Part shown: positions 5,154 through 30,868 of the stretch, piece by piece
How positions within the stretch are numbered: position 1 is the first letter of the stretch
Layout of the letters: each line of letters opens with the position of its first letter
DNA from: a virus
Virus record (IMG/VR): IMGVR_UViG_3300037247_001689
Coordinates: 1-64,000 of that record
Direction: 5' to 3' (one strand)
DNA: 64,000 nt
Notes under the pieces: generated by a model
Database searches by the model: none
What the model saw: only the letters and a program-made list of their open reading frames with translations
What the model was told of the DNA's origin: nothing
Position numbers and translations under genes: made by a program

Positions 5154-6068
5154 ATGGCAGGAAGACCGTGTAAAGTATGTGAATTAAAAAAGACACATTC
5201 AGAAGCATACAAGTTAATTAGTACAGAAATAAAGAAGGAAAAAGGAAAGGCGAAGATCAAACAATTGTTGTTCATCCTTAAAGAACGATTCAATCTAAAA
5301 GTCAATGGTGTTAATATACACCGCCACAAAGAACACCTCGCTAAAAACTCAGGGAAAGTAGTAAAAACGAAGAAAAAACAACCCGCCGAAATGGAAGTAT
5401 ATTCTCCTGAAGGGGAACTGCTATACACCAACATACAAGAAATAATCGATGATTTAACAGATAGCGAAGGTGCCTTCTGTGAGTTTTTTGTTAATACTCA
5501 TAATCACAATGGAACTTCATCATATATGCAAGCATTTCAGACAGATGTGTATAGTACAGCAGCAGTGAATGCCAGTAAATTACTAAAAAAGACTAATATA
5601 CAGCTTTATATATCACACCTGATCAATGAACGATCCAGAAATTTAAAGGTATCATCCTCTTTTGTCCTCACTGGATTGATGGAAAATTATTCAAGATGCA
5701 TGCAATCTGAGCCTGTTATTGGGAAGGATGGCGAACCTATCGGGATATATAAGCACGATTCCAATGCAGCTAATAAGGCACTTGAACTAATTGGGAAAAG
5801 CATTCAAATGTGGGAAAAGAAGCCAGACCCAACCAATCAAAAGCTATTCCAAGAGATTATGGAGAAACTTCTTATCAACAAGATAAATCCAATAACAGCA
5901 GGAATTGAACTTGAGAAAAATAATATTGGACTTCCCGAAGTTGTTAAAATAGCCATGCGTAAAGTTGACCCTAGCGTTCTTGATAAACCAGATATGACAG
6001 ATTCGGATGATATGAAAGAGTATACTGATGAAGAACTCGAACAGGTTTTATCTGGAGATGTGAATTGA
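5154..6068 (+). CDS. terS: terminase small subunit
   Basis: LTDSEGAFCEFFV..NGTSSY..AF...AAVNASKLLKKTNIQ..I HTH, then ANKALELIGK; directly upstream of terL. Confidence 0.85.
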   Translation: MAGRPCKVCELKKTHSEAYKLISTEIKKEKGKAKIKQLLFILKERFNLKVNGVNIHRHKEHLAKNSGKVVKTKKKQPAEMEVYSPEGELLYTNIQEIIDDLTDSEGAFCEFFVNTHNHNGTSSYMQAFQTDVYSTAAVNASKLLKKTNIQLYISHLINERSRNLKVSSSFVLTGLMENYSRCMQSEPVIGKDGEPIGIYKHDSNAANKALELIGKSIQMWEKKPDPTNQKLFQEIMEKLLINKINPITAGIELEKNNIGLPEVVKIAMRKVDPSVLDKPDMTDSDDMKEYTDEELEQVLSGDVN

Positions 6069-7903
6069 TATCTAAATCACAGGCAAGACAAGAATTAAGA
6101 ATCAGAAAAGCCAAAAGAGAATTATCCAGGCGAAGCGTTTTCCACTTCCTAAAATATACCTTCCGGCATTACAAATATGAGAACTGGCACCATAAAGTAG
6201 TTTCCGATTTTTACAAATCACTTATTGAAAGAAAAATCACAAGAGGAATTATCGAATTACCTCCAAGACACAGCAAGACAGAGGGTTGCGAGAGGGCAAT
6301 GGCTTGGGCATATGGTAAAATGCACAAAGATAAAGACGGGAATATCATCAGAAAAGGATGTGATGAGAAAATAATCCACTGTTCTGCAACAATGCCAAGG
6401 GCAAGGAAAACGTCTGTAAATGTGAAAAGGATAGTAAAGGATAATTTGTTTACCGAGGTGTTCCCTAAATTCTTAAGAGAAGGTGTCAGCCGTACCAGGA
6501 CTTTAAAAGGTGTCAAAGATATAAAAGAAGATCAGAATACTTTCTGGGAACTGGGAAGCGGTACCCGGGGCAGTTTTTTAGCAGCAGGTGTTCAAGGTAG
6601 TATTACAGGTGAGGGGTTTACAATTGGAAATATCGATGATCCTACCGGTGGCGCTAAAGATGCAAATTCGCCCACTGTCCAAGAATCAGAAGAAGAGTGG
6701 TTTACTGGAACCTTTATGGATAGGCAGGACGATGAAGACAGCGTTATAATGCTTACAATGCAGCGTTGGGGCATTAAAGATATGATAGGCAGAAGGCTTT
6801 TGAATGAAGGGATGGCATCATACAACACACACAAGCCACAAAAAGGAGTTCCTGAATGGAATGGGATGGATGAGGGTGAATGGCATGTCCTTTGTTTGCC
6901 AAGGTTAATGGATGAAGAGGCTATGGAATGGAAGCATCCACTTGACCCACGAAAAATAGGGGAAGTGCTTTGGCCTCAAAGATACTCTTTAAAAATGGCC
7001 TTAAAGTTCAAAAAGAATTTGCCTCATTACATCTGGGAAGCCAAACACCAACAAAGACCAAAATTAAGAGGCGGTAATCTAATTAACAGAGCATGGTTTA
7101 AGGAACCTGTCTTAGACTTCCCTAGAGGTGGTAAACTAATCAGATTCTGGGATTTAGCATCAACACCAAAGGAAACCATTAAACAGAATAATCCCGATTT
7201 TACAGCAGGATCATTGCTCACTTTTGTTAATGGAATGATTTATATTATCGATATCGTAGCCACTCAAATTGCCACTAAAGCGAAGTATGATTTAATGAAA
7301 CAAACCGCTGTCCTTGATGATCAAATGTATGGATCGGTCATGCAGATTTGGGAAGAGGAAGGTGGCGCTTCCGGTAAAGATGTTACTGATACCCTGAATG
7401 ATTTACTAGTTGCCCACTTAAGAGCGCCATTGAGAGTTAGGAAGTCCAAAAACTTCTATATTGAACTCCTAGCAAACAAGGCAGAGACAGGAAACGTGAG
7501 AGTCGTCAAAGGCCCATGGCTACATGTAAAACGAGATAACGCGACATTCTTTGATTCAGCTGAAGCCTTCCCAAGCAAATTAGTCCATGACGATGATATT
7601 GATTCCACTGCAAAAGCCTGTTTTATGTTAACCGGTGGTGTAATTGATCCTGCAGATGGCAGAGACAGAGAACAAAACGAACACAAAACAACCGACCACA
7701 ACCCCGAAACCGAAAAGCAAACCCTTTTTCAAACCCTAGAAAAACAAATCCTCAAAGGAAAAGTAGACGAATCTAAAATAAAAGACATCGATTTAACCTT
7801 AAAAATCCTTGAAGAAATAAGCCGGAAATACGTTGATAAAGGGGATTCCGAGACGGCTGGATTAATATTTGATGAGATAGACCGGATAGAATTATTAAAA
7901 TAA
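6065..7903 (+). CDS. terL: terminase large subunit
   Basis: Walker A-like LPPRHSKT, ITGEGFTIGNIDDP (Walker B), LTMQRW, LWPQRY, HQQRP, nuclease motifs RFWDLAS/DFTAG and HDDDIDS. Confidence 0.95.
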   Translation: MISKSQARQELRIRKAKRELSRRSVFHFLKYTFRHYKYENWHHKVVSDFYKSLIERKITRGIIELPPRHSKTEGCERAMAWAYGKMHKDKDGNIIRKGCDEKIIHCSATMPRARKTSVNVKRIVKDNLFTEVFPKFLREGVSRTRTLKGVKDIKEDQNTFWELGSGTRGSFLAAGVQGSITGEGFTIGNIDDPTGGAKDANSPTVQESEEEWFTGTFMDRQDDEDSVIMLTMQRWGIKDMIGRRLLNEGMASYNTHKPQKGVPEWNGMDEGEWHVLCLPRLMDEEAMEWKHPLDPRKIGEVLWPQRYSLKMALKFKKNLPHYIWEAKHQQRPKLRGGNLINRAWFKEPVLDFPRGGKLIRFWDLASTPKETIKQNNPDFTAGSLLTFVNGMIYIIDIVATQIATKAKYDLMKQTAVLDDQMYGSVMQIWEEEGGASGKDVTDTLNDLLVAHLRAPLRVRKSKNFYIELLANKAETGNVRVVKGPWLHVKRDNATFFDSAEAFPSKLVHDDDIDSTAKACFMLTGGVIDPADGRDREQNEHKTTDHNPETEKQTLFQTLEKQILKGKVDESKIKDIDLTLKILEEISRKYVDKGDSETAGLIFDEIDRIELLK

Positions 7904-7993: not shown

Positions 7994-10900
7994 ATGGAAA
8001 ATTCAACTAAAAAACAAACTGAAACAGTAAATGATATAACAGCTAAAGAATTATTAGGGCTAACAAAAAAAATGAATCCTGGTAAAAAAATTAAAGTTTT
8101 AAAATATAGAGCTGAATTAAGAAGACTGAAATAACATTTTAACGGTCCCGATAGGTGGGCTTTTTTAAAACAAATAATCATGAGACAAAATGACAAACTT
8201 AGAAAAACTCACACTACAAGAATTAAAAAGAGACGGGATTACAACCGAGACTCTAAAAAACCTGTCCGACTCTGACAGGACCGTTTTAATAATAGAATAC
8301 GCTAAATCAGCATCAAAAAGATTTCAACTATTCCATGAAAAATTAAATGTCTCGAAACTTGCAAGAGAAGCATTTAACATGAAAGTTTATTCAATAATTT
8401 AATCAATATAATTACTAAGGGGTAAGAGATGGATATTATAATTTCTATTATTGAAACTGGCTTATATGGTCTTCTGGTAGGGGCAAGTGTTTCATTTGTT
8501 TTATTTCTGACTTTAACTATGCCTTTTTTAATTCCTCTTTTGATATGTGAAACGGCGGATATATTGTTAACAATTCCGACTAAAATTAAAAACAGCTTAA
8601 CCGCTAACTATTAATAAAAATGGTTTCAAAAATGACCCCTGAACAAAAATGGTTTAACCGTATGAAAAAATGTCTTGAAGATATGCCAGAAGGGATTGAA
8701 TTTGGTATCTTTGACAGGACTATACTTTATTTAAAAGAGGGTGAATATAAAAAATGCATGGATGATAAAATGTTGATGGATGCTCAAATAGATAGCCAAC
8801 TTTTTGAGCGTATTTTTGGCAATGACTCTTTTTACTAACTATTAATTAGGAGATATAATGAACATAGAAGAAGTACAAGAAATGATAGATTTAACCCCGA
8901 ATCAAGAAAAGGCTTGGAAATCATTAAAAAGGGCGTTTACCAAATGCGCTAAAGAAAATATTTATCTCTATCAGGTTCTGGACAGTTTAAGTGGGTTAAA
9001 TGGTAATAATATATCAAAAATATTAGAAAAGGCTGAGGTCGAGGATTCGAAAGGGTGGAACGACGAAAGAAATTTACAGAATTTAGCCTATGAAAGTGTA
9101 AAAACTACTGACGCGTGGGCAGATGATACCCACTTTGTTATATTAAAATAACAATCATAACTACAGGATAAGATATGGAAGGAACAACGCTTGTATTAAA
9201 TGATAAACAACTTAAACGGGTAAGAATTTTAATTGATGATTATGTAAATCTTCGCGGTAATATCAGATGCCAAGATAGGGCTGAAATAGAAGAACTAAAC
9301 GATCATATTAAGTCCGTGTATGAAATTAAAGACAATAAAAAAATTGTCGATAAGCCAGTTATCTACGTACAACATCAAATGCTTAAAGCGTATAGGGGTC
9401 TCGGTAGAATAAAAGAATATGTCAAAAAAACGAAACGATTAACTAAAAATGAAATAAATGAACATATTAAAAACATAAATGAGCCACTATTGAGAGCTTT
9501 CATGGATGTTTTTCCAGACGAAGACAACACCGATTATGGCGAACTTTAATAATGGGAAAAGACATGCCAAAATACAGCGTAACAATACCAATATACTCAT
9601 TTATGACAGTTGAGGTCGAAGCAGATAATAAAAAAGAGGCCATTAATAAAGCTTTAGACGATGCGATGCCGCCTTGTCTTTGTCATCAATGTTCGGATGA
9701 TTTGGAAGTCGGGGAAATTGCTGAAGATCTAATAAATGATAATAATGCTCATCAAATCGATTAACTAAACCTTCAATATTAAGACATATTATGATCAGTA
9801 AAAACTATAGTGAACTATTTAAACCATCTTTAGAAGTTATATCAAACGCAGGAAAACCATATTATCACTTTGTTATGTTCGGAAATGAAGGTGTAGAAGG
9901 ATACAAAGTTGTCCGAGACGAATCTGAAATTAAGCCAGAAACAATCAGCAAGATGAAATTAAGAGCAAGGATTAACGCACATAGGAACGTCAGTGTTTTC
10001 GCATTTAAATCTGATTCAAAAGTTGATATGAATGATATTACCAAAAAGATGTTAAAAGGCGACCACGTTATAAAATTAAATTAACAAACGACTTTTGCAC
10101 CTATCAAAATAGGTATTTTTACATTCACTGCAGCGTACATTTTAAAATTTATGGGGATTATGAAAACAGCAGAAGAAAGAGCAATTAAATTTGCAAAAAG
10201 AATAATTAAAATTGATTGCCAGGATAATAAGGCCGTTCAAAAATCTGACAGGTTGAATCAAAAATCATTAGCTGGTAAAATATTAATATTGCTAAAAGAA
10301 CAAGATAAAATAACCAAAGGAAGTATAATCATTGATCTCAATAAAAAAATCGCAGCTGGTGAAATGATACTATGTGCATACGCAATGGATATAGTCAGTG
10401 AATCCAAAACACTTTAAAAACCTTATTAACTAATACATTGGAGATTGATATGAAACAATATACAGAAATCGGGACGTGTCATAGTTGCCCATTGAATCAT
10501 AAAACCATGGTTAAAATAAAATGCCCATGGGTTGATAATTTAGGTGAGTTGGATAATTTTGAACCATTTAATAAAATACATCCCGATTGCACTCTTGATG
10601 ATATACCGGTCAAGAAGTAATTTCTTAACCACCTTATATAATATAACCTTTAACAAAAATTTAAAATGAGCGATACAACAGAACTAGAATTAAAAGACGC
10701 ACCAGAATATGACGAACTAGCAAGATTATTAATAAAAAATTATCTTAAAGATGCTAACATCTACAAAGAAATGGGCGCTTGTATGACTGGCAAGATACAA
10801 GAATTAAAGGAACAAACAAAGACCTCTATATTAACCAAAACTAGAGGAAATTTAATTTTTCACGGTGGGTGCCTTAGTTGCTCAGAACAAAGTTTAAATA

Positions 10901-18914: not shown

Positions 18915-18944
18915 TTGACAGAATAAAATTGTATAAGTTATATT
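18915..18944 (+). promoter_or_regulatory. sigma70-type promoter with TATAAGTTATA box
   Basis: TTGACA 18915-18920, TATATT 18939-18944, box at 18932-18942. Confidence 0.65.
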
Positions 18945-19012: not shown

Positions 19013-19300
19013 ATGGTAAAAACTTTTAAACCTTTAAATGGGAAAGTGACCGTCAGAGAATTTGATCCAAAAGCAGTAATAACTGCTGCGGGGATTGAAC
19101 TGTCAAAAGAAGAACATGCGCCTGCTGTCTTATATGGTGAAATTGTTCATGTTTGTTCATTCAAAGAAGATGATAAGAATGCCGTTAAGGTAGGTGATAA
19201 AATTGCATATCCGGTAACAGATGGCAGGCACATCTACATTAACAATGAAGAATTTAAACTTCTAAGTTCTGACCAGATCATTGGTGTTTACACAGATTAA
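19013..19300 (+). CDS. groES: co-chaperonin GroES-like
   Basis: FKPLNGKVTV...TAAGIEL...GEIVHV...VKVGDKI.Y...G..I.IN.EEF.LL...IIGV. Confidence 0.9.
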   Translation: MVKTFKPLNGKVTVREFDPKAVITAAGIELSKEEHAPAVLYGEIVHVCSFKEDDKNAVKVGDKIAYPVTDGRHIYINNEEFKLLSSDQIIGVYTD

Positions 19301-19763: not shown

Positions 19764-20084
19764 TTGAAAATATCCATAATCTTGTTACTTGCTAGTATTT
19801 TTATGGCAGTATCAACGTTTGCGGCAACAGAAACGATTCAGGAGGCATTGAACCCGCCTGATAACTTTGTTGCGATTTCTACACCGGCTGTAATGGCTGA
19901 ATTTATATACGCGATAGACCGATCAACGGCTCTTTCAAATAACGTATTGAGTCAATTTAATATTATTAAGAATTTACACGAGACAGGTTTAAATACCACT
20001 TATGAAATTGCCGGTTTTTGGGACAAATCCTTGGAGGTTGAAACTGTCCTTAAGTTTCCCTGCTTGATACAAATCATAAGTTAA
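19764..20084 (+). CDS. secreted hypothetical protein
   Basis: Signal peptide MKISIILLLASIFMAVSTFA; GAGG RBS; TTG start. Confidence 0.55.
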   Translation: MKISIILLLASIFMAVSTFAATETIQEALNPPDNFVAISTPAVMAEFIYAIDRSTALSNNVLSQFNIIKNLHETGLNTTYEIAGFWDKSLEVETVLKFPCLIQIIS

Positions 20085-20113
20085 AAACACCTGGCAGAAA
20101 GAAATCAAATATA

Positions 20114-20147
20114 AAAAGCTCATAATTGTTACTAATTATGAGCTTTT
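20114..20147. terminator. perfect 14-bp hairpin, intrinsic terminator-like
   Basis: AAAAGCTCATAATT-gttact-AATTATGAGCTTTT. Confidence 0.7.
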
Positions 20148-20219
20148 GGCAGTATCAGAGCGAGAACTCGTTAAACTAATTGAAGTACATTGACGGCTAA
20201 TCGGTGCCATTTCTGCAAA

Positions 20220-21180
20220 TTCCGATTTGGTATAACGATAAGCAATATAAAAGAAAGATCAAAATAGAAAGATTTAAATCACAGTAACTAATAAGGAGAA
20301 AAATGATAAAGCTAAGTCTATAACCACCGCCAAGTGTAAAATAGATTAGGCTAAAAATAAAAAATGATTTCCGATTGCCTATCGTTCGGAGTCGCCCTAA
20401 TTGGGTTATCAAATGTAGGCTTCATGGAGTAAACCACAAAGAAAGAAATCAAACAGAGGTTGCCGTTAGGGTATCGCCAGTGAGATAGAAATATGGTGCA
20501 AATACAGGCGTTTAAGTTGCCAGTTCGAAATATGAGGCTATAAATTCCAATTTGGTGCCCACAGAGTACGTGACCGTAACGTTTTTCCGGCTAGTCAATA
20601 AACTAAGAAGCCATCTGTACACAGTTTAAGTCTGTGCCTCTGTTTTTGAAAAATGAATAATAACACCATACAGACCTATACGGGAACCATAAGCGGTTAA
20701 TCGGAAATAGAAAGCTCTCCGATCCTTAAAATTAAAAAACGTATAGAGATGGTATGGTATTAAGCAGGGATTAAATTGGTTGCTGAATATTAGGTAAGGT
20801 ATGACCGGATACAGCTTTACCGGGTAACTATTGCTAAAAGGAATAGATAATGCAAGTTTATTTACTGGCATAAATTATAGTCTGAAAAGATGAGTCCCTG
20901 CTTTTCAATAATAGTAAGTTGCAGTTAAATTTATTGCATGATAATTGATCATTTGATTGCAGGTTTTTACCCAAAAAAGTGTATTGTAAAATGTAGAAAT
21001 ACCCTTGGTAAATTTAACTGTTTCAATAATAGTAATAAATGTACATTAAATGTTTATTTAGTGTACATTGTTTAGTGTTATTGAAACCTCGTTTATGATC
21101 ACCTGAAAAGGTTAGATCAAGGCATGGGTCAATCATAACATTAAGGCGGTGGGTTTATTGATGCTATATATGACCACCGC
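20220..21180 (+). ncRNA. array of structured non-coding RNA domains
   Basis: No credible ORF. Successive closing stems at 20234/20386, 20451/20645, 20661/20762, 20762/20903, 20921/21021, 21021/21086 and 21146/21180, with G-U pairs favouring the + strand. Confidence 0.65.
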
Positions 21181-21232
21181 TAAACATTTTATTAATAATA
21201 TTTTTCTTTTAAAAAATTTAATAGAGTCCATT

Positions 21233-21373
21233 ATGAAATCAAAAATTGAAGAAGCCATTAAAACGCTTCTGGAAAAGATCAAAGAAGATACTAAACCAAA
21301 TGATGCGGTTAGTATCTCGATAGCTGTTTTAAATTTAGCTAATGCTAGAGCAGTACCGGTGCCAGAAAAATGA
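21233..21373 (+). CDS. 46-aa helical protein inside the RNA cluster
   Basis: MKSKIEEAIKTLLEKIKEDTKPNDAVSISIAVLNLANARAVPVPEK. Confidence 0.5.
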   Translation: MKSKIEEAIKTLLEKIKEDTKPNDAVSISIAVLNLANARAVPVPEK

Positions 21374-21543
21374 TACCGAACAGCGGTTGAAAACGTACTA
21401 TTCCATGTTAACCCTCCCTGTAATTGCACAACGTAAACCCCTAATACGGTGGTTGGTGAAAACAACTTACATAGGAAGTCATAACAATATAACTAAAATA
21501 TGAGCGTGACTGTCGTGAGAGAGCGGCGTTTTAATAAATATAT

Positions 21544-21618
21544 TCTGTCGTACTCAATAGGTGAGTTGCTTCCGTTGGCCAACGGAGTATCTAAGTTCAA
21601 TTCTTAGCGACAGAGCCA
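21544..21618 (+). tRNA. atypical tRNA-like element (anticodon undetermined)
   Basis: Perfect acceptor TCTGTCG/CGACAGA + GCCA, D-arm with GG, T-arm CTAAG-TTCAATT-CTTAG; anticodon arm is the palindrome TCCGTTGGCCAACGGA. Confidence 0.7.
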
Positions 21619-21625
21619 AACAAAT

Positions 21626-21914
21626 GATACCAGTAACGGTGGTTCAATTCCACCTCGTTTGCCGAGACTTGGTAGGAGCAAGATGGTTCGATTCCATCCT
21701 TGACTTGTTGGTACAAGGGGCATGACTGGCGTGAAAGAGCGCCACCCAAATGATAAGAATGTGTCTAAACGTACACCGACCATGGCAAGGCTAAATGGGT
21801 GCGTGGCGGAGGTGAGAGGACTTCGTAAAATCATGTAAAGTGCCATTGATCGTCCTGTTTTTATCTTAACAGTAATAAGTGGCCTTATTGTCAATGGTAC
21901 TTTAGATGGTTTTA
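21626..21914 (+). ncRNA. structured RNA segment between the two tRNAs
   Basis: Two T-arm-like hairpins GGTGG-TTCAATT-CCACC and GATGG-TTCGATT-CCATC; long stem 21826/21914. Confidence 0.55.
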
Positions 21915-21920
21915 AAATGT

Positions 21921-21995
21921 GGGGGCGTAGCTCAGAGGTAGAGTACCTGTTTTGCAAGCAGGGTGTCGGGATTTCGAAATTCCCCGCTTCCACCA
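21921..21995 (+). tRNA. tRNA-Ala(TGC)
   Basis: Cloverleaf GGGGGCG...CCTGT-TTTGCAA-GCAGG...TTCGAAA...CGCTTCC-A-CCA, with the G3:U70 alanine determinant. Confidence 0.9.
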
Positions 21996-22135
21996 CAAAT
22001 CCACCCGATTAATTAACGGGTTAACAACAGGCTGGATAGGCTTTTTTAGCGGATAGTCCAGCCTCTCATGCAGAAAGATTGGCAGTTGTTCTAGATTGTT
22101 GCCATTCAACACTATATGATGAAATCTTGCGAACA

Positions 22136-22524
22136 ATGGAAATAAGCTTAGGATTCTGGTCAATATTAGGATTGATAGTTATTGCTGCAAAGCTTTTTAA
22201 GTTCATTAATTGGCCGTGGAAATGGATATTATTACCATTGTGGGGACCATTTGTCTTAGGCTTTATCGGTTGGATTATAATAATCGCTGGTGCTGTAATG
22301 ATGAGCAGTGTATGAGCTATTTCATTAAAAAACAGACAGGATATAAAGGTCAAGGCACTCGAAAATACCCATGTAAATATGGTCACTTAACAATGATCGA
22401 ATTGAAGGAGAAAACAGGGCTTAGTGAATCTCAGATGCAATACAGAATGAAGTTTAAAACAGTTGATCAGATTCTTGAATCATTAGAAAAACAGGAAAAC
22501 CCTCTTGCACAAGGAAGTGCTTAA
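22136..22524 (+). CDS. small two-TM protein (22136-22315) and small HTH-like protein (22312-22524)
   Basis: INWPWKWILLPLWG membrane motif; LTMIELKEKTGLSESQMQYRM. Confidence 0.55.
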
Positions 22525-28999: not shown

Positions 29000-30868
29000 A
29001 TGCCACAAGACAATGAAGAAAAGGCTTTAGTCTATGGCCCACCAGCTATCAGGCAGGGAAGGAAAAAGAAACTTGAGAAACTAGAGGTTGATTTTTCGGA
29101 TTATAAAAATCAAATAAATTCATTAGTTGATCAGATATCCAAGAAATCATCTGACAATTATCAATACTCTGCAGCGTTCGATTATTACAGACAAACCAGT
29201 ACGACCGGGCCAAATTCAAATGTTTTAGAACAGCTTTACGGTAGAAATCTATCATTTTTAAGACAATATTATCACGTCAACTCACCGATCGATAAAATAA
29301 TATTTGGGAAACGTAACGAGCAAATGCGTATTTTATCGGATTGTGTGGCCGATGTTCCTGGGAAAATTGGCTGGCGTGTCGTTCATAAAGATAGTGATTC
29401 TCCTAAATTCAAAACAACACCTGAAATTGAAAAACAATGTCGATGGTATGAAGAACTAATCAAAAGTCCAAACCGAACCAGGCACCCGGGAAGACATCAA
29501 GATGCATTTATTTCAATGTTAGAATCAAAAATGTTATTTGACCGGATCCCAATTGAAAAATTAGAACATTTAGATTATCGAGGCAGTGGAGCTCCTGCAA
29601 GTTGGTTAGTCCCTGACGCTGCGACAATCAAGCCGACAACATGGGTATTACAAGCAATGGGTGGCGCTCCAGGCTATACGGGTAAAAACCAGCGTGACCA
29701 GGTTCAAAGATCAGTACACAATAGCCAAACAACAGCCAAGCAATTATTAGCGTACAACACAGAAGTGTACGCTAAAAATATGGCCAAAAAGAATGGCACC
29801 TCAGAGGCACATGAACTGTATAGACTTAATTCAGGACTCATAAAATGGGTTCAGGAGATGCCGGACCATCAAATTTCGGCAGGTTACACTGACAATGATA
29901 TCTCTGTTTTTATCGGGAATCCGAGTCCTCAAGTCAATGCGTGGGGATGGTCATCTGGATCCGCTTTCGAAAGATCGTTCGCTTTCGGTGAAGTGATATT
30001 TAAAATGACCGGTTATAATGCTGAGATATTCGACTCTAAAATGCCAGAGGGGATTATATCAATTAATGATTCAGGCCGGGATAAAAGAGGAAAGCAACAA
30101 TTCCACCAAAGAATGCTGGAAGAAGGTTCGGATAGATACAATAACATCATGGTTCAATTTGTCGGGGATCCTGAAAAAGATGTTAAATATCTAAAGATCA
30201 AAGATAAACCGACTGACATGCAATTCCAGCAATTGTTTATACTCTATGTAAAAATTAAATGCGCGGCATATGGTTTCGATTATCGCTTATTAAACCTTGA
30301 AGACGGAAAATCAGGTGGAATGGGTGGGTCAGGTGCCGCTGAAAAGCAAATGGATTTACAGAATGAAATGGGCATCGTTAGTGACACGAAATATATTGCC
30401 CATTGTTTAACACTTGCTTTAATTGATCCGTGGTCTCCTGATTTCAGAATGGAATTTGTGTATGATGTTTCGGATTCTGAAGAAAAGCTTAAAATATTAA
30501 AGAGCAAACTTGAGGTATCCAGTTCTGTATCTGAAATCAGAAAATCAGAAAATCTTGAAGCTGATTTTTGGAAAGCGGCACCGAAAGAACATCAGGAAAA
30601 GCTTAAGAAATTTTCATGGCCTCTATACTTCCCAACCATGACAAATGCACAGGTGGTCCAAATCGTACTGAAAGAAATGGATATCGAGCAGCAAGACAAA
30701 GCCATGGAACAAGAGCAAAAAATGGCAGATCAAGAACAGCCTGAAGGAGAAGAACCAGTTAAAGAAGACAAGGAAATAGCCGATTTACGTTCAGCAATCG
30801 GCAATCAGGAAGAAGAAAACGAGAAAATGGGAAAGAGTTGGAGTATTGATGTTAACCATCATTATTGA
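29000..30868 (+). CDS. portal protein
   Basis: LFDRIPIEK...VPDAATIK...WVQ...YNAEIF....PEGII...DMQFQQL...IKCAAYGFD...; resembles Herelleviridae-type portals. Confidence 0.9.
   Translation: MPQDNEEKALVYGPPAIRQGRKKKLEKLEVDFSDYKNQINSLVDQISKKSSDNYQYSAAFDYYRQTSTTGPNSNVLEQLYGRNLSFLRQYYHVNSPIDKIIFGKRNEQMRILSDCVADVPGKIGWRVVHKDSDSPKFKTTPEIEKQCRWYEELIKSPNRTRHPGRHQDAFISMLESKMLFDRIPIEKLEHLDYRGSGAPASWLVPDAATIKPTTWVLQAMGGAPGYTGKNQRDQVQRSVHNSQTTAKQLLAYNTEVYAKNMAKKNGTSEAHELYRLNSGLIKWVQEMPDHQISAGYTDNDISVFIGNPSPQVNAWGWSSGSAFERSFAFGEVIFKMTGYNAEIFDSKMPEGIISINDSGRDKRGKQQFHQRMLEEGSDRYNNIMVQFVGDPEKDVKYLKIKDKPTDMQFQQLFILYVKIKCAAYGFDYRLLNLEDGKSGGMGGSGAAEKQMDLQNEMGIVSDTKYIAHCLTLALIDPWSPDFRMEFVYDVSDSEEKLKILKSKLEVSSSVSEIRKSENLEADFWKAAPKEHQEKLKKFSWPLYFPTMTNAQVVQIVLKEMDIEQQDKAMEQEQKMADQEQPEGEEPVKEDKEIADLRSAIGNQEEENEKMGKSWSIDVNHHY

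What the first reader, a model, noticed from the sequence alone, without database searches (positions are those of the whole stretch)
20148..22080. ~2 kb tRNA-linked array of back-to-back structured non-coding RNA domains
Seen: in an otherwise gene-dense genome, ~2 kb holds only one plausible 46-aa ORF and is tiled by self-contained domains, each closed by a long-range stem and nearly abutting the next. Stems: AACGATAAGCAAT/ATTGCCTATCGTT (20234/20386), AAACAGAGG/CCTCTGTTT (20451/20645), ACCATAC/GTATGGT with inner CTATACG/CGTATAG (20661-20762), AAGCAGGGA/TCCCTGCTT (20762/20903), CAGTTAAATTTA/TAAATTTAACTG (20922/21020), a long rod 21021-21086, GCGGTGG/CCACCGC (21146-21180), a multi-hairpin unit ~21388-21532, a ~24-bp stem 21826/21914 and AGGCTGGA/TCCAGCCT after tRNA-Ala. 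Many mismatches are G-U on the + strand, which suggests selection at the RNA level. Known: large ornate RNAs such as GOLLD and ROOL occur beside phage tRNAs. Inference: a polycistronic cassette of novel phage ncRNAs or one large ornate RNA. I do not recognise it as a known family.
Basis: partly seen in the sequence, partly recalled or inferred. Interest (0 to 1): 0.85.

Follow-up and report, generated by a model that had tools for sequence, protein, structure and literature searches.

The report
Orphan phage non-coding island beside tRNA-Ala
A marine-sediment phage has about 1.9 kb of DNA with almost no protein-coding content next to its only tRNA gene; it holds a tRNA-shaped RNA that probably cannot decode, tRNA fragments and a few exceptionally stable hairpins, but no relatives or RNA data exist to show what it does.

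Summary
The gap is real. Between 20148 and 22078, only a conserved 46-aa ORF (21233-21373) and tRNA-Ala (21921-21995) are recognisable genes. Rfam finds nothing else.

The structure claim is only partly confirmed. Every listed stem is present. Clearly beyond chance are two hairpins, 21020-21087 and 21826-21914, which are the most stable 100-nt plus-strand windows of the 116-kb genome. So are domains 20762-20903 and 20655-20765, and a tRNA-shaped unit with encoded CCA at 21544-21618. Units 20451-20645, 21388-21532 and 21745-21825 fold no better than shuffles.

The stem-closed tiling is unusual only in 20148-21090: 82% covered, against 53% in shuffles. The G-U polarity points to the minus strand left of about 20762 and to the plus strand to its right.

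My best reading, at about 0.4, is a cassette of several small stable RNAs around tRNA-Ala, not one giant RNA. Decay debris is the main rival.

There are no homologues, so no covariation test was possible, and no RNA run was found. The scan's unchecked notes describe anticodon-less tRNA mimics in other phages, but nothing resembling this array.

The parts
20114..20147 (.). Perfect 14-bp hairpin with an A-run before it and a T-run after it. It looks like a bidirectional intrinsic terminator that closes the upstream plus-strand genes and possibly a minus-strand unit coming from the right.
   Evidence: inverted repeat I6, 100% complementary. Window 20040-20150 folds with z -4.4. The scan flagged it on the minus strand.
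20234..20386 (.). Domain closed by a 13-position stem: 12 Watson-Crick pairs plus one A.C on the plus strand, which is G.U on the minus strand. It holds a 6-codon mini-ORF with a strong ribosome-binding site (ATG at 20303).
   Evidence: z -3.1 (+) and -2.1 (-). for the stem census. for the sequence.
20451..20645 (.). Span closed by a perfect 9-bp stem and followed by a T5/A5 tract. The interior is not more stable than chance. The best sigma-70-like site of the region lies inside it (20517-20546, plus strand).
   Evidence: z -0.66 (+) and -1.65 (-).. for the promoter-like and terminator-like sites.
20655..20765 (-). Y-shaped domain of three helices that folds markedly better as minus-strand RNA.
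   Evidence: minus strand -33.6 kcal/mol, z -5.6, 0/200 shuffles as stable. Plus strand -25.5, z -3.6. It is the second most stable minus-strand window of the genome.
20762..20903 (+). 142-nt multi-branch domain closed by an 11-bp stem and followed by a T-run. It is more stable on the plus strand.
   Evidence: -40.3 kcal/mol, z -3.8, 0/300 on the plus strand; -28.5 on the minus strand; z -3.3; 5 G-U pairs and no A.C mismatch.
20903..20917 (+). First copy of an exact 15-nt direct repeat. The second copy is at 21021-21035 and an inverted partner is at 21072-21086.
   Evidence: families D9 and I10. One search shows no other exact copy in the genome, and one copy with 1 mismatch at 8442 on the minus strand.
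20922..21020 (.). 99-nt unit bounded by perfect 12-bp inverted repeats and flanked by the 15-nt direct repeat. It has the shape of an inserted element, but is only weakly structured.
   Evidence: I14; z -2.0 on both strands. No other copy in the genome. 4 matches in 185,579 species genomes, with unrelated interiors.
21020..21087 (+). 68-nt A+U-rich rod of 29 pairs. It is the most stable local structure of the genome.
   Evidence: -30.2 kcal/mol, z -9.2 on the plus strand; -17.6, z -6.9 on the minus strand; top-ranked window; 23 A-U, 4 G-C, 2 G-U pairs and 1 G.G mismatch.
21233..21373 (+). Real 46-aa protein gene of unknown function. It splits the non-coding stretch into two blocks.
   Evidence: Codon score 0.219. 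A 47-aa homologue is 69% identical by BLASTP, 67% in the two-sequence alignment. A second homologue, 48% identical, lies in a dense coding context in an unrelated IMG/VR contig with no tRNA.
21361..21377 (+). First of three copies of the motif GCCA-N3-AAATGATA. The others are at 21615-21631 and 21741-21755. In the second copy, GCCA is the discriminator plus CCA of the tRNA-shaped unit.
   Evidence: families D1, D5, D8..
21544..21618 (+). tRNA-shaped RNA gene. It has a perfect 7-bp acceptor, U8/A14, a GG in the D loop, a canonical T arm (loop UUCAAUU), discriminator G and an encoded CCA. The anticodon loop is the 8-nt palindrome UUGGCCAA, which can instead close into a 9-bp arm with a GGCC loop.
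   Evidence: cloverleaf as the minimum-energy fold, z -3.3; found by ARAGORN only at a relaxed threshold; the only strict tRNA frame in the genome, 0 in 100 shuffled genomes; not matched by the Rfam tRNA model at E<=10.
21628..21713 (+). Cloverleaf-like four-way junction holding two tRNA T-arm hairpins (GGTTCAATTCC and GGTTCGATTCC cores) and a closed middle arm. It is probably a degenerate or rearranged tRNA-derived unit.
   Evidence: z -1.8 (12/200); z -1.3. Neither is significant; these are the only two exact GGTTCNATTCC matches in the genome; no tRNA model match.
21826..21914 (+). 89-nt hairpin with a stem of about 24 bp and a forked tip. It ends 6 nt before tRNA-Ala.
   Evidence: z -5.5.: -33.6 kcal/mol, z -7.7 on the plus strand; -22.6 on the minus strand; third-ranked window; 3 G-U pairs and no A.C mismatch.
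21921..21995 (+). tRNA-Ala(UGC) with G3:U70 and an encoded CCA. It is the only canonical tRNA of the genome.
   Evidence: (53.1 bits).
22029..22063 (+). G+C-rich 8-bp hairpin after the tRNA, with no U-tract behind it.
   Evidence: z -2.6, 0/200; z -3.2.

Best explanation
The stretch is a non-coding RNA island made of several separate small units. It is not one giant RNA.

The G+C-rich right block (21374-22078) is a tRNA-type transcription unit on the plus strand. It carries tRNA-Ala, a tRNA-shaped RNA with CCA whose anticodon loop is an 8-nt palindrome (so it very probably does not decode), and a rearranged tRNA-derived unit with two T arms. A dsRNA hairpin of about 24 bp abuts the 5' end of tRNA-Ala.

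Inferred mechanism for this block: host RNA polymerase makes a precursor. RNase P and 3'-end enzymes release the tRNA-framed pieces. The long hairpins act as double-strand-specific (RNase III-type) processing sites or as protective ends.

The left block (20148-21090) is a string of five or six stem-closed modules of 70-190 nt. I read these as small stable RNAs. By wobble polarity, the part left of about 20762 would be read from the minus strand and end at the bidirectional terminator 20114-20147. The part from 20762 on would be read from the plus strand.

Shown: the lack of coding, the structures and their statistics, the tRNA frame, and the absence from known families. Inferred: transcription, processing, strand assignment and any function.
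For: - Non-coding status.
- The two strongest plus-strand structures of the whole genome lie here and are 11-13 kcal/mol better on the plus strand.
- Domains 20762-20903 and 20655-20765 beat 300 and 200 shuffles respectively.
- Block 20148-20902 has z -2.3/-3.3, against controls of +0.19 +/- 0.60.
- Tiling of 20148-21090 covers 82% against 53% in shuffles: 0/200 shuffles and 1/161 other segments reach it.
- The right block has 44.4% G+C. Other intergenic DNA has 29.8% (47 regions, 6,777 nt) and the genome 35%. This is as expected for structured RNA genes in an A+T-rich genome.
- The tRNA frame at 21544-21618 is unique in the genome and absent from 100 shuffled genomes. Its acceptor, T and anticodon stems are unbroken and all its tertiary-core nucleotides are present. 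This argues against an old pseudogene.
- Three GCCA-N3-AAATGATA copies suggest repeated tRNA-type 3' ends with a shared trailer.
- Precedents: T4 makes two small RNAs of unknown role from its tRNA region (PMC3014915, passage read). GOLLD and ROOL lie near tRNAs and in prophages (PMC5737381, passages read). Lak phages have large, highly expressed intergenic regions (PMC6784885, abstract and passages read).
Against: - There is no evidence of transcription. No RNA run holds the sequence.
- No convincing promoter lies inside the region. The best is 20517-20546 with score 11.1. Sites scoring at least 6.5 occur about 6 per kb per strand genome-wide.
- No homologue was found, so no covariation test was possible.
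- Several named units are no better than shuffles.
- Local 100-nt stability of 20148-20920 is ordinary: mean z -0.25, and 23% of null blocks are lower.
- Left-block z-scores are as strong on the minus strand as on the plus strand. This also fits symmetrical DNA-level inverted repeats.
- G+C and A+T skews of the left block look like those of plus-strand coding DNA. This sits badly with a minus-strand unit and fits decayed genes.
- The helices in the wobble census overlap and many are chance matches, so p 0.0011 is optimistic.
- The phage encodes no RNase III, so processing would depend on an unknown host.
Confidence: 0.4

Rival explanations
1. Mostly debris. The stretch would be a decaying tRNA cluster plus remnants of lost genes and insertion or duplication scars. 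Only tRNA-Ala, the 46-aa gene and ordinary terminator or processing hairpins would be functional. Many 'domains' would be chance stems in A+T-rich DNA.
For: - Orphan T arms and a cloverleaf that fails the tRNA model look like tRNA relics.
- Chance alone tiles about 50% of any segment of this genome with such stems and gives 8-10 stems of at least 8 bp per 1.9 kb.
- A third of the named units are not significant.
- The left block has coding-like G+C (33.9%) and coding-like skews.
- A strong ribosome-binding site followed by a 6-codon ORF at 20290-20323 looks like a dead gene start.
- Short direct repeats at domain borders (15-nt and 14-nt exact copies) look like duplication or insertion scars.
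- In another phage, the 46-aa gene's homologue sits in dense coding DNA without any of this.
Against: - No trace of any protein family in six frames.
- The left block folds about 4 control-SD better than other genome segments, and its tiling exceeds 200/200 shuffles.
- The acceptor, T and anticodon stems of the tRNA-shaped unit are unbroken.
- The G+C of both blocks is above the intergenic level of 29.8%, so they are not at mutational equilibrium.
- The two giant hairpins are far outside the genome's distribution.
Confidence: 0.3
2. A DNA-level element. The A+T-rich core (20904-21087, 23.9% G+C), with its 68-bp near-palindrome and three copies of a 15-bp site, would be a replication origin or a protein-binding control region. 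The other inverted repeats would act as DNA hairpins or cruciforms.
For: - This is the lowest G+C of the region.
- The 15-mer occurs twice directly and once inverted within 184 bp, with a one-mismatch copy at 8442.
- Left-block z-scores are equally strong on both strands.
- G.T is also the least harmful mismatch in DNA hairpins (established knowledge, not tested here).
Against: - The cumulative G+C skew shows no turning point here. It follows gene orientation.
- The rod is complementary along its whole length, not only at the repeated sites.
- The plus-strand fold is 12.6 kcal/mol better than the minus-strand fold, while shuffles differ by 3.7.
- No replication gene was identified nearby.
Confidence: 0.12
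3. One large ornate RNA of at least 0.9 kb, of the GOLLD/ROOL kind, covering the left block or the whole stretch.
For: - It lies next to a phage tRNA, as GOLLD and ROOL often do (PMC5737381, passages read).
- Adjoining stem-closed domains without spacers cover 82% of 20148-21090.
- Block z is -3.9 for 20148-21232.
Against: - No Rfam match even at E<=10.
- The wobble polarity changes strand inside the block.
- Domain 20655-20765 prefers the minus strand.
- Terminator-like T-runs follow two of the domains.
- A real protein gene splits the 2 kb.
- There are no homologues, whereas known large ornate RNAs are families spread over many genomes.
Confidence: 0.08

Closest known systems
Phage T4 tRNA region with the small RNAs RNAC and RNAD
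   Same: Small non-tRNA RNAs of unknown role are encoded in a phage tRNA region and made with the tRNAs (PMC3014915, passage read). Here too, tRNA-framed non-tRNA units sit next to a real tRNA on the same strand, with encoded CCA ends.
   Different: There is no sequence similarity to any GenBank phage beyond tRNA-Ala. This phage has one tRNA, not eight (the T4 count is recalled). An extra block of about 1 kb of non-tRNA-like modules and a protein gene lie in between. Expression is not shown here.
GOLLD and ROOL large ornate RNAs
   Same: They are large non-coding stretches near tRNAs in phages or prophages, with multi-stem architecture (PMC5737381, passages read).
   Different: No match to any Rfam model. 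That GOLLD and ROOL are among the 4,227 models is recalled, not checked. This stretch is not one RNA by strand polarity and by the embedded gene. It is an orphan, with no conserved family behind it.
Lak megaphage large expressed intergenic regions and odd tRNAs
   Same: A phage genome with large intergenic regions and tRNA genes that depart from the canonical form (PMC6784885, abstract and passages read).
   Different: Lak regions are shown to be expressed and are conserved across many genomes. The Lak oddity is inserts ('introns') in otherwise decoding tRNAs. Here the anticodon loop itself is an 8-nt palindrome and nothing is known about expression.
RNase III processing hairpins of phage T7 transcripts (recalled textbook knowledge, no paper read here)
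   Same: Long, imperfect double-stranded hairpins of at least 20 bp lie between functional units of a phage transcript, with G-U pairs on the transcribed strand.
   Different: Cleavage is untested. The host is unknown. The phage has no RNase III of its own. These hairpins are longer and more A+U-rich than typical sites.
Anticodon-less tRNA mimics noted by this scan in other phages (unchecked AI notes)
   Same: A tRNA body with CCA, and a palindrome-capped closed arm or aberrant loop in place of a decoding anticodon loop, next to real phage tRNAs.
   Different: No sequence relative. Here the loop could also be read as a four-base anticodon.

Membership tests
GOLLD / ROOL (Rfam large ornate RNAs) | Match to the family covariance model | tested here: not met
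   cmscan of the window at gathering scores and of 19900-22300 at E<=10 lists only tRNA-Ala and chance-level hits. That both families are in Rfam 15 is recalled.
GOLLD / ROOL (Rfam large ornate RNAs) | A single RNA of about 580-800 nt with conserved multistem junctions and pseudoknots | tested here: inconclusive
   Stem-closed domains tile 20148-21090, but strand polarity switches near 20762. With no homologues, conservation cannot be tested.
GOLLD / ROOL (Rfam large ornate RNAs) | Location near tRNA genes, in phages or prophages | tested here: met
   It lies in a virus record with direct terminal repeats, with tRNA-Ala inside the stretch.
Canonical tRNA (Rfam RF00005), for 21544-21618 | Score at or above the model's gathering threshold | tested here: not met
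   Not listed at gathering scores or at E<=10 in stretches of 2.4 kb and 191 nt. ARAGORN misses it at default settings and finds it only with relaxed settings that also give five doubtful calls: four overlapping or poorly paired ones and one low-G+C one.
Canonical tRNA (Rfam RF00005), for 21544-21618 | 7-bp acceptor, D arm with GG, T arm with a TTCRA loop, and an NCCA end | tested here: met
   Cloverleaf as the minimum-energy fold. A strict frame scan finds it as the only hit in the genome and 0 hits in 100 shuffled genomes.
Canonical tRNA (Rfam RF00005), for 21544-21618 | 7-nt anticodon loop with a three-base anticodon | tested here: not met
   The loop is the 8-nt palindrome UUGGCCAA. In the minimum-energy fold it closes to a GGCC tetraloop.
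Quadruplet-decoding (+1 frameshift suppressor) tRNA | 8-nt anticodon loop with U33 and a purine after the anticodon | tested here: met
   ARAGORN's reading is U-U-GGCC-A-A on a 5-bp stem.
Quadruplet-decoding (+1 frameshift suppressor) tRNA | Genes that need a +1 shift at the cognate four-base codon, or avoidance of that codon in frame | tested here: not met
   Of 81 GGCC sites, only one (95711) joins two open frames of at least 40 codons, which is chance level. 25 in-frame GGC-C sites occur in genes, including the large ORFs 6065-7903 and 29000-30868. GGCC is depleted in all frames alike.
Two-piece (permuted) tmRNA | tRNA-like domain plus a tag reading frame recognised by ARAGORN or the Rfam tmRNA models | tested here: not met
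   None at default settings. The relaxed hit at 21297-21663 has an unidentified tag ending in ...NITKI and overlaps the 46-aa gene. There is no full tmRNA model match: the only listing is a 17-nt piece over one T arm (cyano_tmRNA, 6.7 bits against a gathering score of 70, E 7.3), and none appears.
MITE-type mobile element, for 20922-21020 | Terminal inverted repeats and flanking direct repeats | tested here: inconclusive
   There are perfect 12-bp inverted ends and an exact 15-nt direct repeat, but 4 extra nt lie on the left side.
MITE-type mobile element, for 20922-21020 | Further copies in the same or other genomes | tested here: not met
   No other copy in the 116-kb genome. An end-pattern scan of 185,579 species genomes gave 4 loci with unrelated interiors.
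Intrinsic terminator, for 20114-20147 | Stable hairpin followed by a U-tract | tested here: met
   A 14-bp perfect stem with A- and T-runs on either side, flagged by the scan.
RNase III-type processing hairpin, for 21020-21087 and 21826-21914 | At least 20 bp of near-continuous double-stranded RNA on the transcribed strand | tested here: met
   29 and 35 pairs, with G-U pairs only on the plus strand.
RNase III-type processing hairpin, for 21020-21087 and 21826-21914 | Cleavage by RNase III | not testable with these tools
   This needs an enzyme assay or RNA-end mapping. The phage has no RNase III domain of its own.

The most novel reading that the evidence does not exclude
The phage keeps a dedicated RNA island that works as a set:
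- a string of about 0.95 kb of stem-closed modules of a class not yet described, read from both strands;
- tRNA-shaped, CCA-ending RNAs that do not decode;
- giant hairpins.

GGCC occurs only twice in the 1.9 kb. Both copies lie in hairpin loops: the 8-nt palindrome of the tRNA-shaped unit, and the tip of the 21826-21914 hairpin. Because GGCC is self-complementary, the two loops could pair with each other or between molecules. The pieces might then assemble into a higher-order RNA particle, or act as decoys for host tRNA-directed or dsRNA-directed defences.
Probability: 0.15. Interest if true: 0.75.

Novelty: new variant of a known kind. Interest (0 to 1): 0.4.

Why it matters
Non-coding RNAs of phages are poorly charted. 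The known cases beside phage tRNAs (T4 RNAC and RNAD, GOLLD, ROOL) still have no assigned function.

If this island makes stable RNAs, it would add three things. The first is a compact, cloneable example that combines a non-decoding tRNA look-alike, tRNA-derived fragments and giant hairpins. The second is a possible case of RNAs read from both strands. The third is a test bed for whether such RNAs serve processing, decoy or assembly roles.

If it is debris, it documents how a phage tRNA cluster decays. It also shows how readily chance stems 'tile' A+T-rich DNA: about 50% cover in the controls here.

Tried and rejected
Known RNA families: Rfam at gathering scores and at E<=10 on three stretches gave only tRNA-Ala.

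Hidden or broken protein genes: codon scoring, a sliding scan, and six-frame read-through with X at stops against Pfam and PHROGs found nothing. Stop-codon counts show no frame opened by reassigning one stop.

Relatives.
- The search for related loci with five queries: four single neighbouring or core proteins and one alignment.
- The search for homologous proteins with the 259-aa neighbour returned only itself.
- blastn against 50,697 phage records gave only tRNA hits or noise at E>=0.6.
- A degenerate pattern for the 46-aa gene core gave 0 hits in metagenome and viral contigs.
- The scan's own index holds no look-alike.

Other readings tested.
- MITE reading of 20922-21020: no further copies.
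- Arms of the 68-nt rod in metagenomes: at least 116 hits, none similar beyond the arms. These are chance A+T-rich palindromes.
- Quadruplet decoding: no support.
- Two-piece tmRNA: rejected.
- The three GCCA-N3-AAATGATA copies as C-termini of paralogous peptides: rejected, because the upstream frames close within a few codons (read).
- Homology among the units upstream of these motifs: not seen.
- Synteny between our flanks and locus L004: none.

Transcription signals and enzymes.
- Promoters: nothing convincing. The sigma-70 weights were approximate values recalled from memory.
- Phage RNase III: absent. For T7-type RNA polymerase the control genomes did not ring either, so that blank says nothing.

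Expression and read data.
- Expression: no RNA holder is listed.
- Reads: only Logan contigs of the probable source run exist. One identical contig was found, with no variants or joints in the stretch.

Lists of candidate phage RNAs in supplements may bear on the claim that this is undescribed. That claim rests only on Rfam, blastn and paper searches.

Full report
WHERE IT IS. The window is the first 64 kb of a 116,332-bp IMG/VR virus record with direct terminal repeats, rated complete. Its G+C is 35%. Only one public run holds the stretch. It is a marine sediment metagenome and may be the source. Genes here use Shine-Dalgarno sites, and several of the best sigma-70-like sites fall in intergenic gaps. 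Upstream neighbours are a GNAT acetyltransferase, a phage zinc-binding domain protein, a CxxCxxCC protein and a Cpn10/GroES-like protein. The ten ORFs tested downstream have no Pfam match.

IS IT NON-CODING? Yes.
- A codon-usage log-odds model was trained on 52 long ORFs. True coding chunks score 0.232 +/- 0.069. 244 shadow ORFs have a mean of -0.090 and a 95th percentile of 0.096.
- Between 20148 and 22078, only ORF 21149/21233-21373 looks coding, at 0.219. All others score -0.149 to 0.066. A sliding scan agrees.
- Six-frame read-through of 20148-21232, with X at stops, matches no Pfam or PHROG family at E<=1.
- No single stop reassignment opens a frame.
- The small ORF is real. A 47-aa protein, 69% identical, exists in ENA data. 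A 48%-identical homologue lies in dense coding DNA of an unrelated, higher-G+C IMG/VR contig that has no tRNA. Both begin at the position of our ATG at 21233, so the gene encodes 46 aa.
- The '2 kb' is therefore two non-coding blocks: 20148-21232 (1,085 nt, 33.9% G+C) and 21374-22078 (705 nt, 44.4% G+C). Other intergenic DNA of this genome has 29.8%.

ARE THE STRUCTURES REAL? Their weight differs greatly.
- Far beyond chance: the 68-nt rod 21020-21087 (z -9.2) and the forked hairpin 21826-21914 (z -7.7). Each was matched by 0 of 300 shuffles.
- In a GC-corrected scan of every 100-nt window of the genome, the three most stable plus-strand windows are these two structures.
- Clearly significant: 20762-20903 (z -3.8, 0/300), 20655-20765 (z -5.6 on the minus strand, 0/200), 20234-20386 (z -3.1) and the hairpin after the tRNA (z -3.2).
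- Not significant: 20451-20653 (z -0.7), 21388-21532 (z 0.0), 21745-21830 (z -0.2) and the second cloverleaf 21628-21713 (z -1.3 to -1.8).
I therefore added unbiased tests.
- Block test: 20148-20902, folded with a 250-nt span limit, gives z -2.3 (+) and -3.3 (-). Eleven other 755-nt segments gave +0.19 +/- 0.60, minimum -1.01. The right block without the big hairpin gives z -0.6.
- Stem count: perfect stems of at least 9 bp within 260 nt number 7, against 2.2 in shuffles (P 0.01) and 3.05 in other segments. Stems of at least 8 bp are not enriched.
- Tiling test: the best non-overlapping cover by stem-closed domains is 82% for 20148-21090. Shuffles give 53 +/- 13% (0/200 reach it), and 1 of 161 other segments reaches it. 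For the whole 1,933 nt the cover is 60% against 52%, P 0.25.
- Chance alone therefore 'tiles' half of any such DNA. The excess is real only in the left 0.95 kb. There, local 100-nt stability is ordinary, so the signal comes from the long-range closing stems.

WHICH STRAND?
- I ran a strand-neutral census of 32 helices, each at least 9 positions long with G.T or A.C allowed.
- The 7 helices wholly left of 20762 carry 0 plus-type and 7 minus-type wobbles. The 23 wholly to the right carry 21 and 9. Two helices span 20762 and carry 2 and 2.
- Fisher p for left against right is 0.0011. Base composition predicts only 45% and 55% plus-type.
- Domain 20655-20765 is 8 kcal/mol better on the minus strand.
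- The rod, the forked hairpin and 20762-20903 are 11-13 kcal/mol better on the plus strand.
- The perfect hairpin 20114-20147 has an A-run before it and a T-run after it, and was flagged as a minus-strand terminator.
- Against a minus-strand unit: the left block has the positive G+C and A+T skews of plus-strand genes. Many helices of the census are mutually exclusive or chance matches.

THE tRNA-DERIVED BLOCK.
- 21544-21618 has a perfect 7-bp acceptor, U8 and A14, GG in the D loop, a 5-bp T stem with loop UUCAAUU, discriminator G and an encoded CCA. It folds as a cloverleaf.
- A strict tRNA-frame scan finds it as the only hit in the genome, and finds none in 100 shuffled genomes.
- It fails the Rfam tRNA model even at E<=10, and it fails ARAGORN at default settings.
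- Its anticodon loop is the 8-nt palindrome UUGGCCAA. This reads either as a four-base anticodon or, in the minimum-energy fold, as a closed 9-bp arm with a GGCC loop.
- Quadruplet decoding finds no support. Among 81 GGCC sites there are no +1-split genes beyond one chance-level case. 25 in-frame GGC-C sites occur in genes, including the large ORFs 6065-7903 and 29000-30868. GGCC is depleted in all frames alike.
- Downstream lie the only two exact GGTTCNATTCC T-arm cores of the genome, inside a weak cloverleaf-like junction.
- The motif GCCA-N3-AAATGATA occurs three times within 400 nt. In one copy GCCA is the tRNA-like 3' end. The segments upstream of the copies are not alignable.
- The relaxed ARAGORN 'permuted tmRNA' has an unidentified tag and overlaps the protein gene. 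The only tmRNA model listing is a 17-nt piece over one T arm, at 6.7 bits. I reject it.

OTHER FEATURES.
- An exact 15-mer flanks the 99-nt unit 20922-21020, which has perfect 12-bp inverted ends. The same 15-mer forms the base of the rod. This looks like an insertion, but no other copy exists in the genome. Four matches among 185,579 species genomes have unrelated interiors.
- A second exact repeat, of 14 nt, links 20096 and 20440.
- No strong promoter lies in the region.
- The phage has no RNase III domain.

RELATIVES AND EXPRESSION.
- No search found a homologue of any non-coding part.
- No RNA run holds the sequence (reported only as tried). Contigs of the probable source run add nothing.

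READING.
- The evidence fits a cassette of several small structured RNAs around the phage's only tRNA better than one giant RNA. The reasons are the embedded real gene, the two blocks of different composition, the strand switch, and T-runs after two domains.
- The nearest documented analogue is the T4 tRNA region, which yields two small RNAs of unknown role (PMC3014915).
- GOLLD and ROOL share only the neighbourhood of tRNAs (PMC5737381), and membership was tested and not met.
- Lak phages show that large expressed intergenic regions and odd tRNAs occur in phages (PMC6784885).
- This scan's own unchecked notes describe anticodon-less tRNA mimics in other phages. I used them as leads only.
- The main rival is decay debris of a former tRNA cluster and lost genes. 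It explains the non-significant units, the orphan T arms, the dead-looking gene start at 20290-20323 and the coding-like composition. It does not explain the fold excess of the left block, the intact stems of the tRNA-shaped unit, or the two extreme hairpins.
- I put the cassette at 0.40, debris at 0.30, a DNA-level origin or control element at 0.12 and a single ornate RNA at 0.08.

VERDICT. The stretch is not a member of any known RNA family and it is an orphan. Interest is moderate at 0.4. The island is genuinely odd for a dense phage genome, but nothing about its transcription, conservation or function can be shown with present data.

Noticed in passing
window 20290-20323: A strong ribosome-binding site (AAGGAG) lies 5 nt before an ATG that opens only a 6-codon ORF (MIKLSL, then a stop) inside the non-coding block. 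It could be a dead gene start or a leader peptide.
   Followed up: partly
window 21233-21373; L004 5001-5144: The 46-aa ORF belongs to a small, unnamed phage protein family. One homologue is a 47-aa ENA protein, 69% identical. Another, 48% identical, sits among small ORFs in an unrelated IMG/VR contig. The family has no PHROG or Pfam match.
   Followed up: partly
window 8442-8456 (minus strand): A one-mismatch copy of the 15-mer that is repeated at 20903, 21021 and (inverted) 21072. It could be a shared protein-binding site or chance.
   Followed up: no
whole genome (G000): GGCC is under-represented: 81 sites against 148 expected from trinucleotide counts. CGCG is too: 40 against 80. This looks like restriction-site avoidance. 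Two of the GGCC sites lie in hairpin loops of the studied region (21577 and 21881).
   Followed up: partly
G000 contig position 95711 (outside the window): The only GGCC site where an open frame of 40 codons continues for 50 codons in the +1 frame. It is probably chance and its coding potential was not examined.
   Followed up: no
window 18915-18944: One of the best sigma-70-like sites of the genome (TTGACA, 18 nt, TATATT) lies in the gap before the GroES-like gene at 19013. It is a likely promoter for the operon that runs up to the terminator at 20114-20147.
   Followed up: no
window 20948-20959: A 12-nt stretch inside the 99-nt unit is complementary (10-11 of 11-12 positions) to the CAAATGAT trailer motif that follows the CCA ends at 21294, 21617 and 21744. 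It could be antisense pairing or chance.
   Followed up: no
window 21146-21180: A 7-bp G+C-rich hairpin lies in the 145-nt spacer before the 46-aa gene. It overlaps the alternative in-frame start codons at 21149, 21161 and 21170 that gene callers may pick; a 67-aa form is on record.
   Followed up: partly
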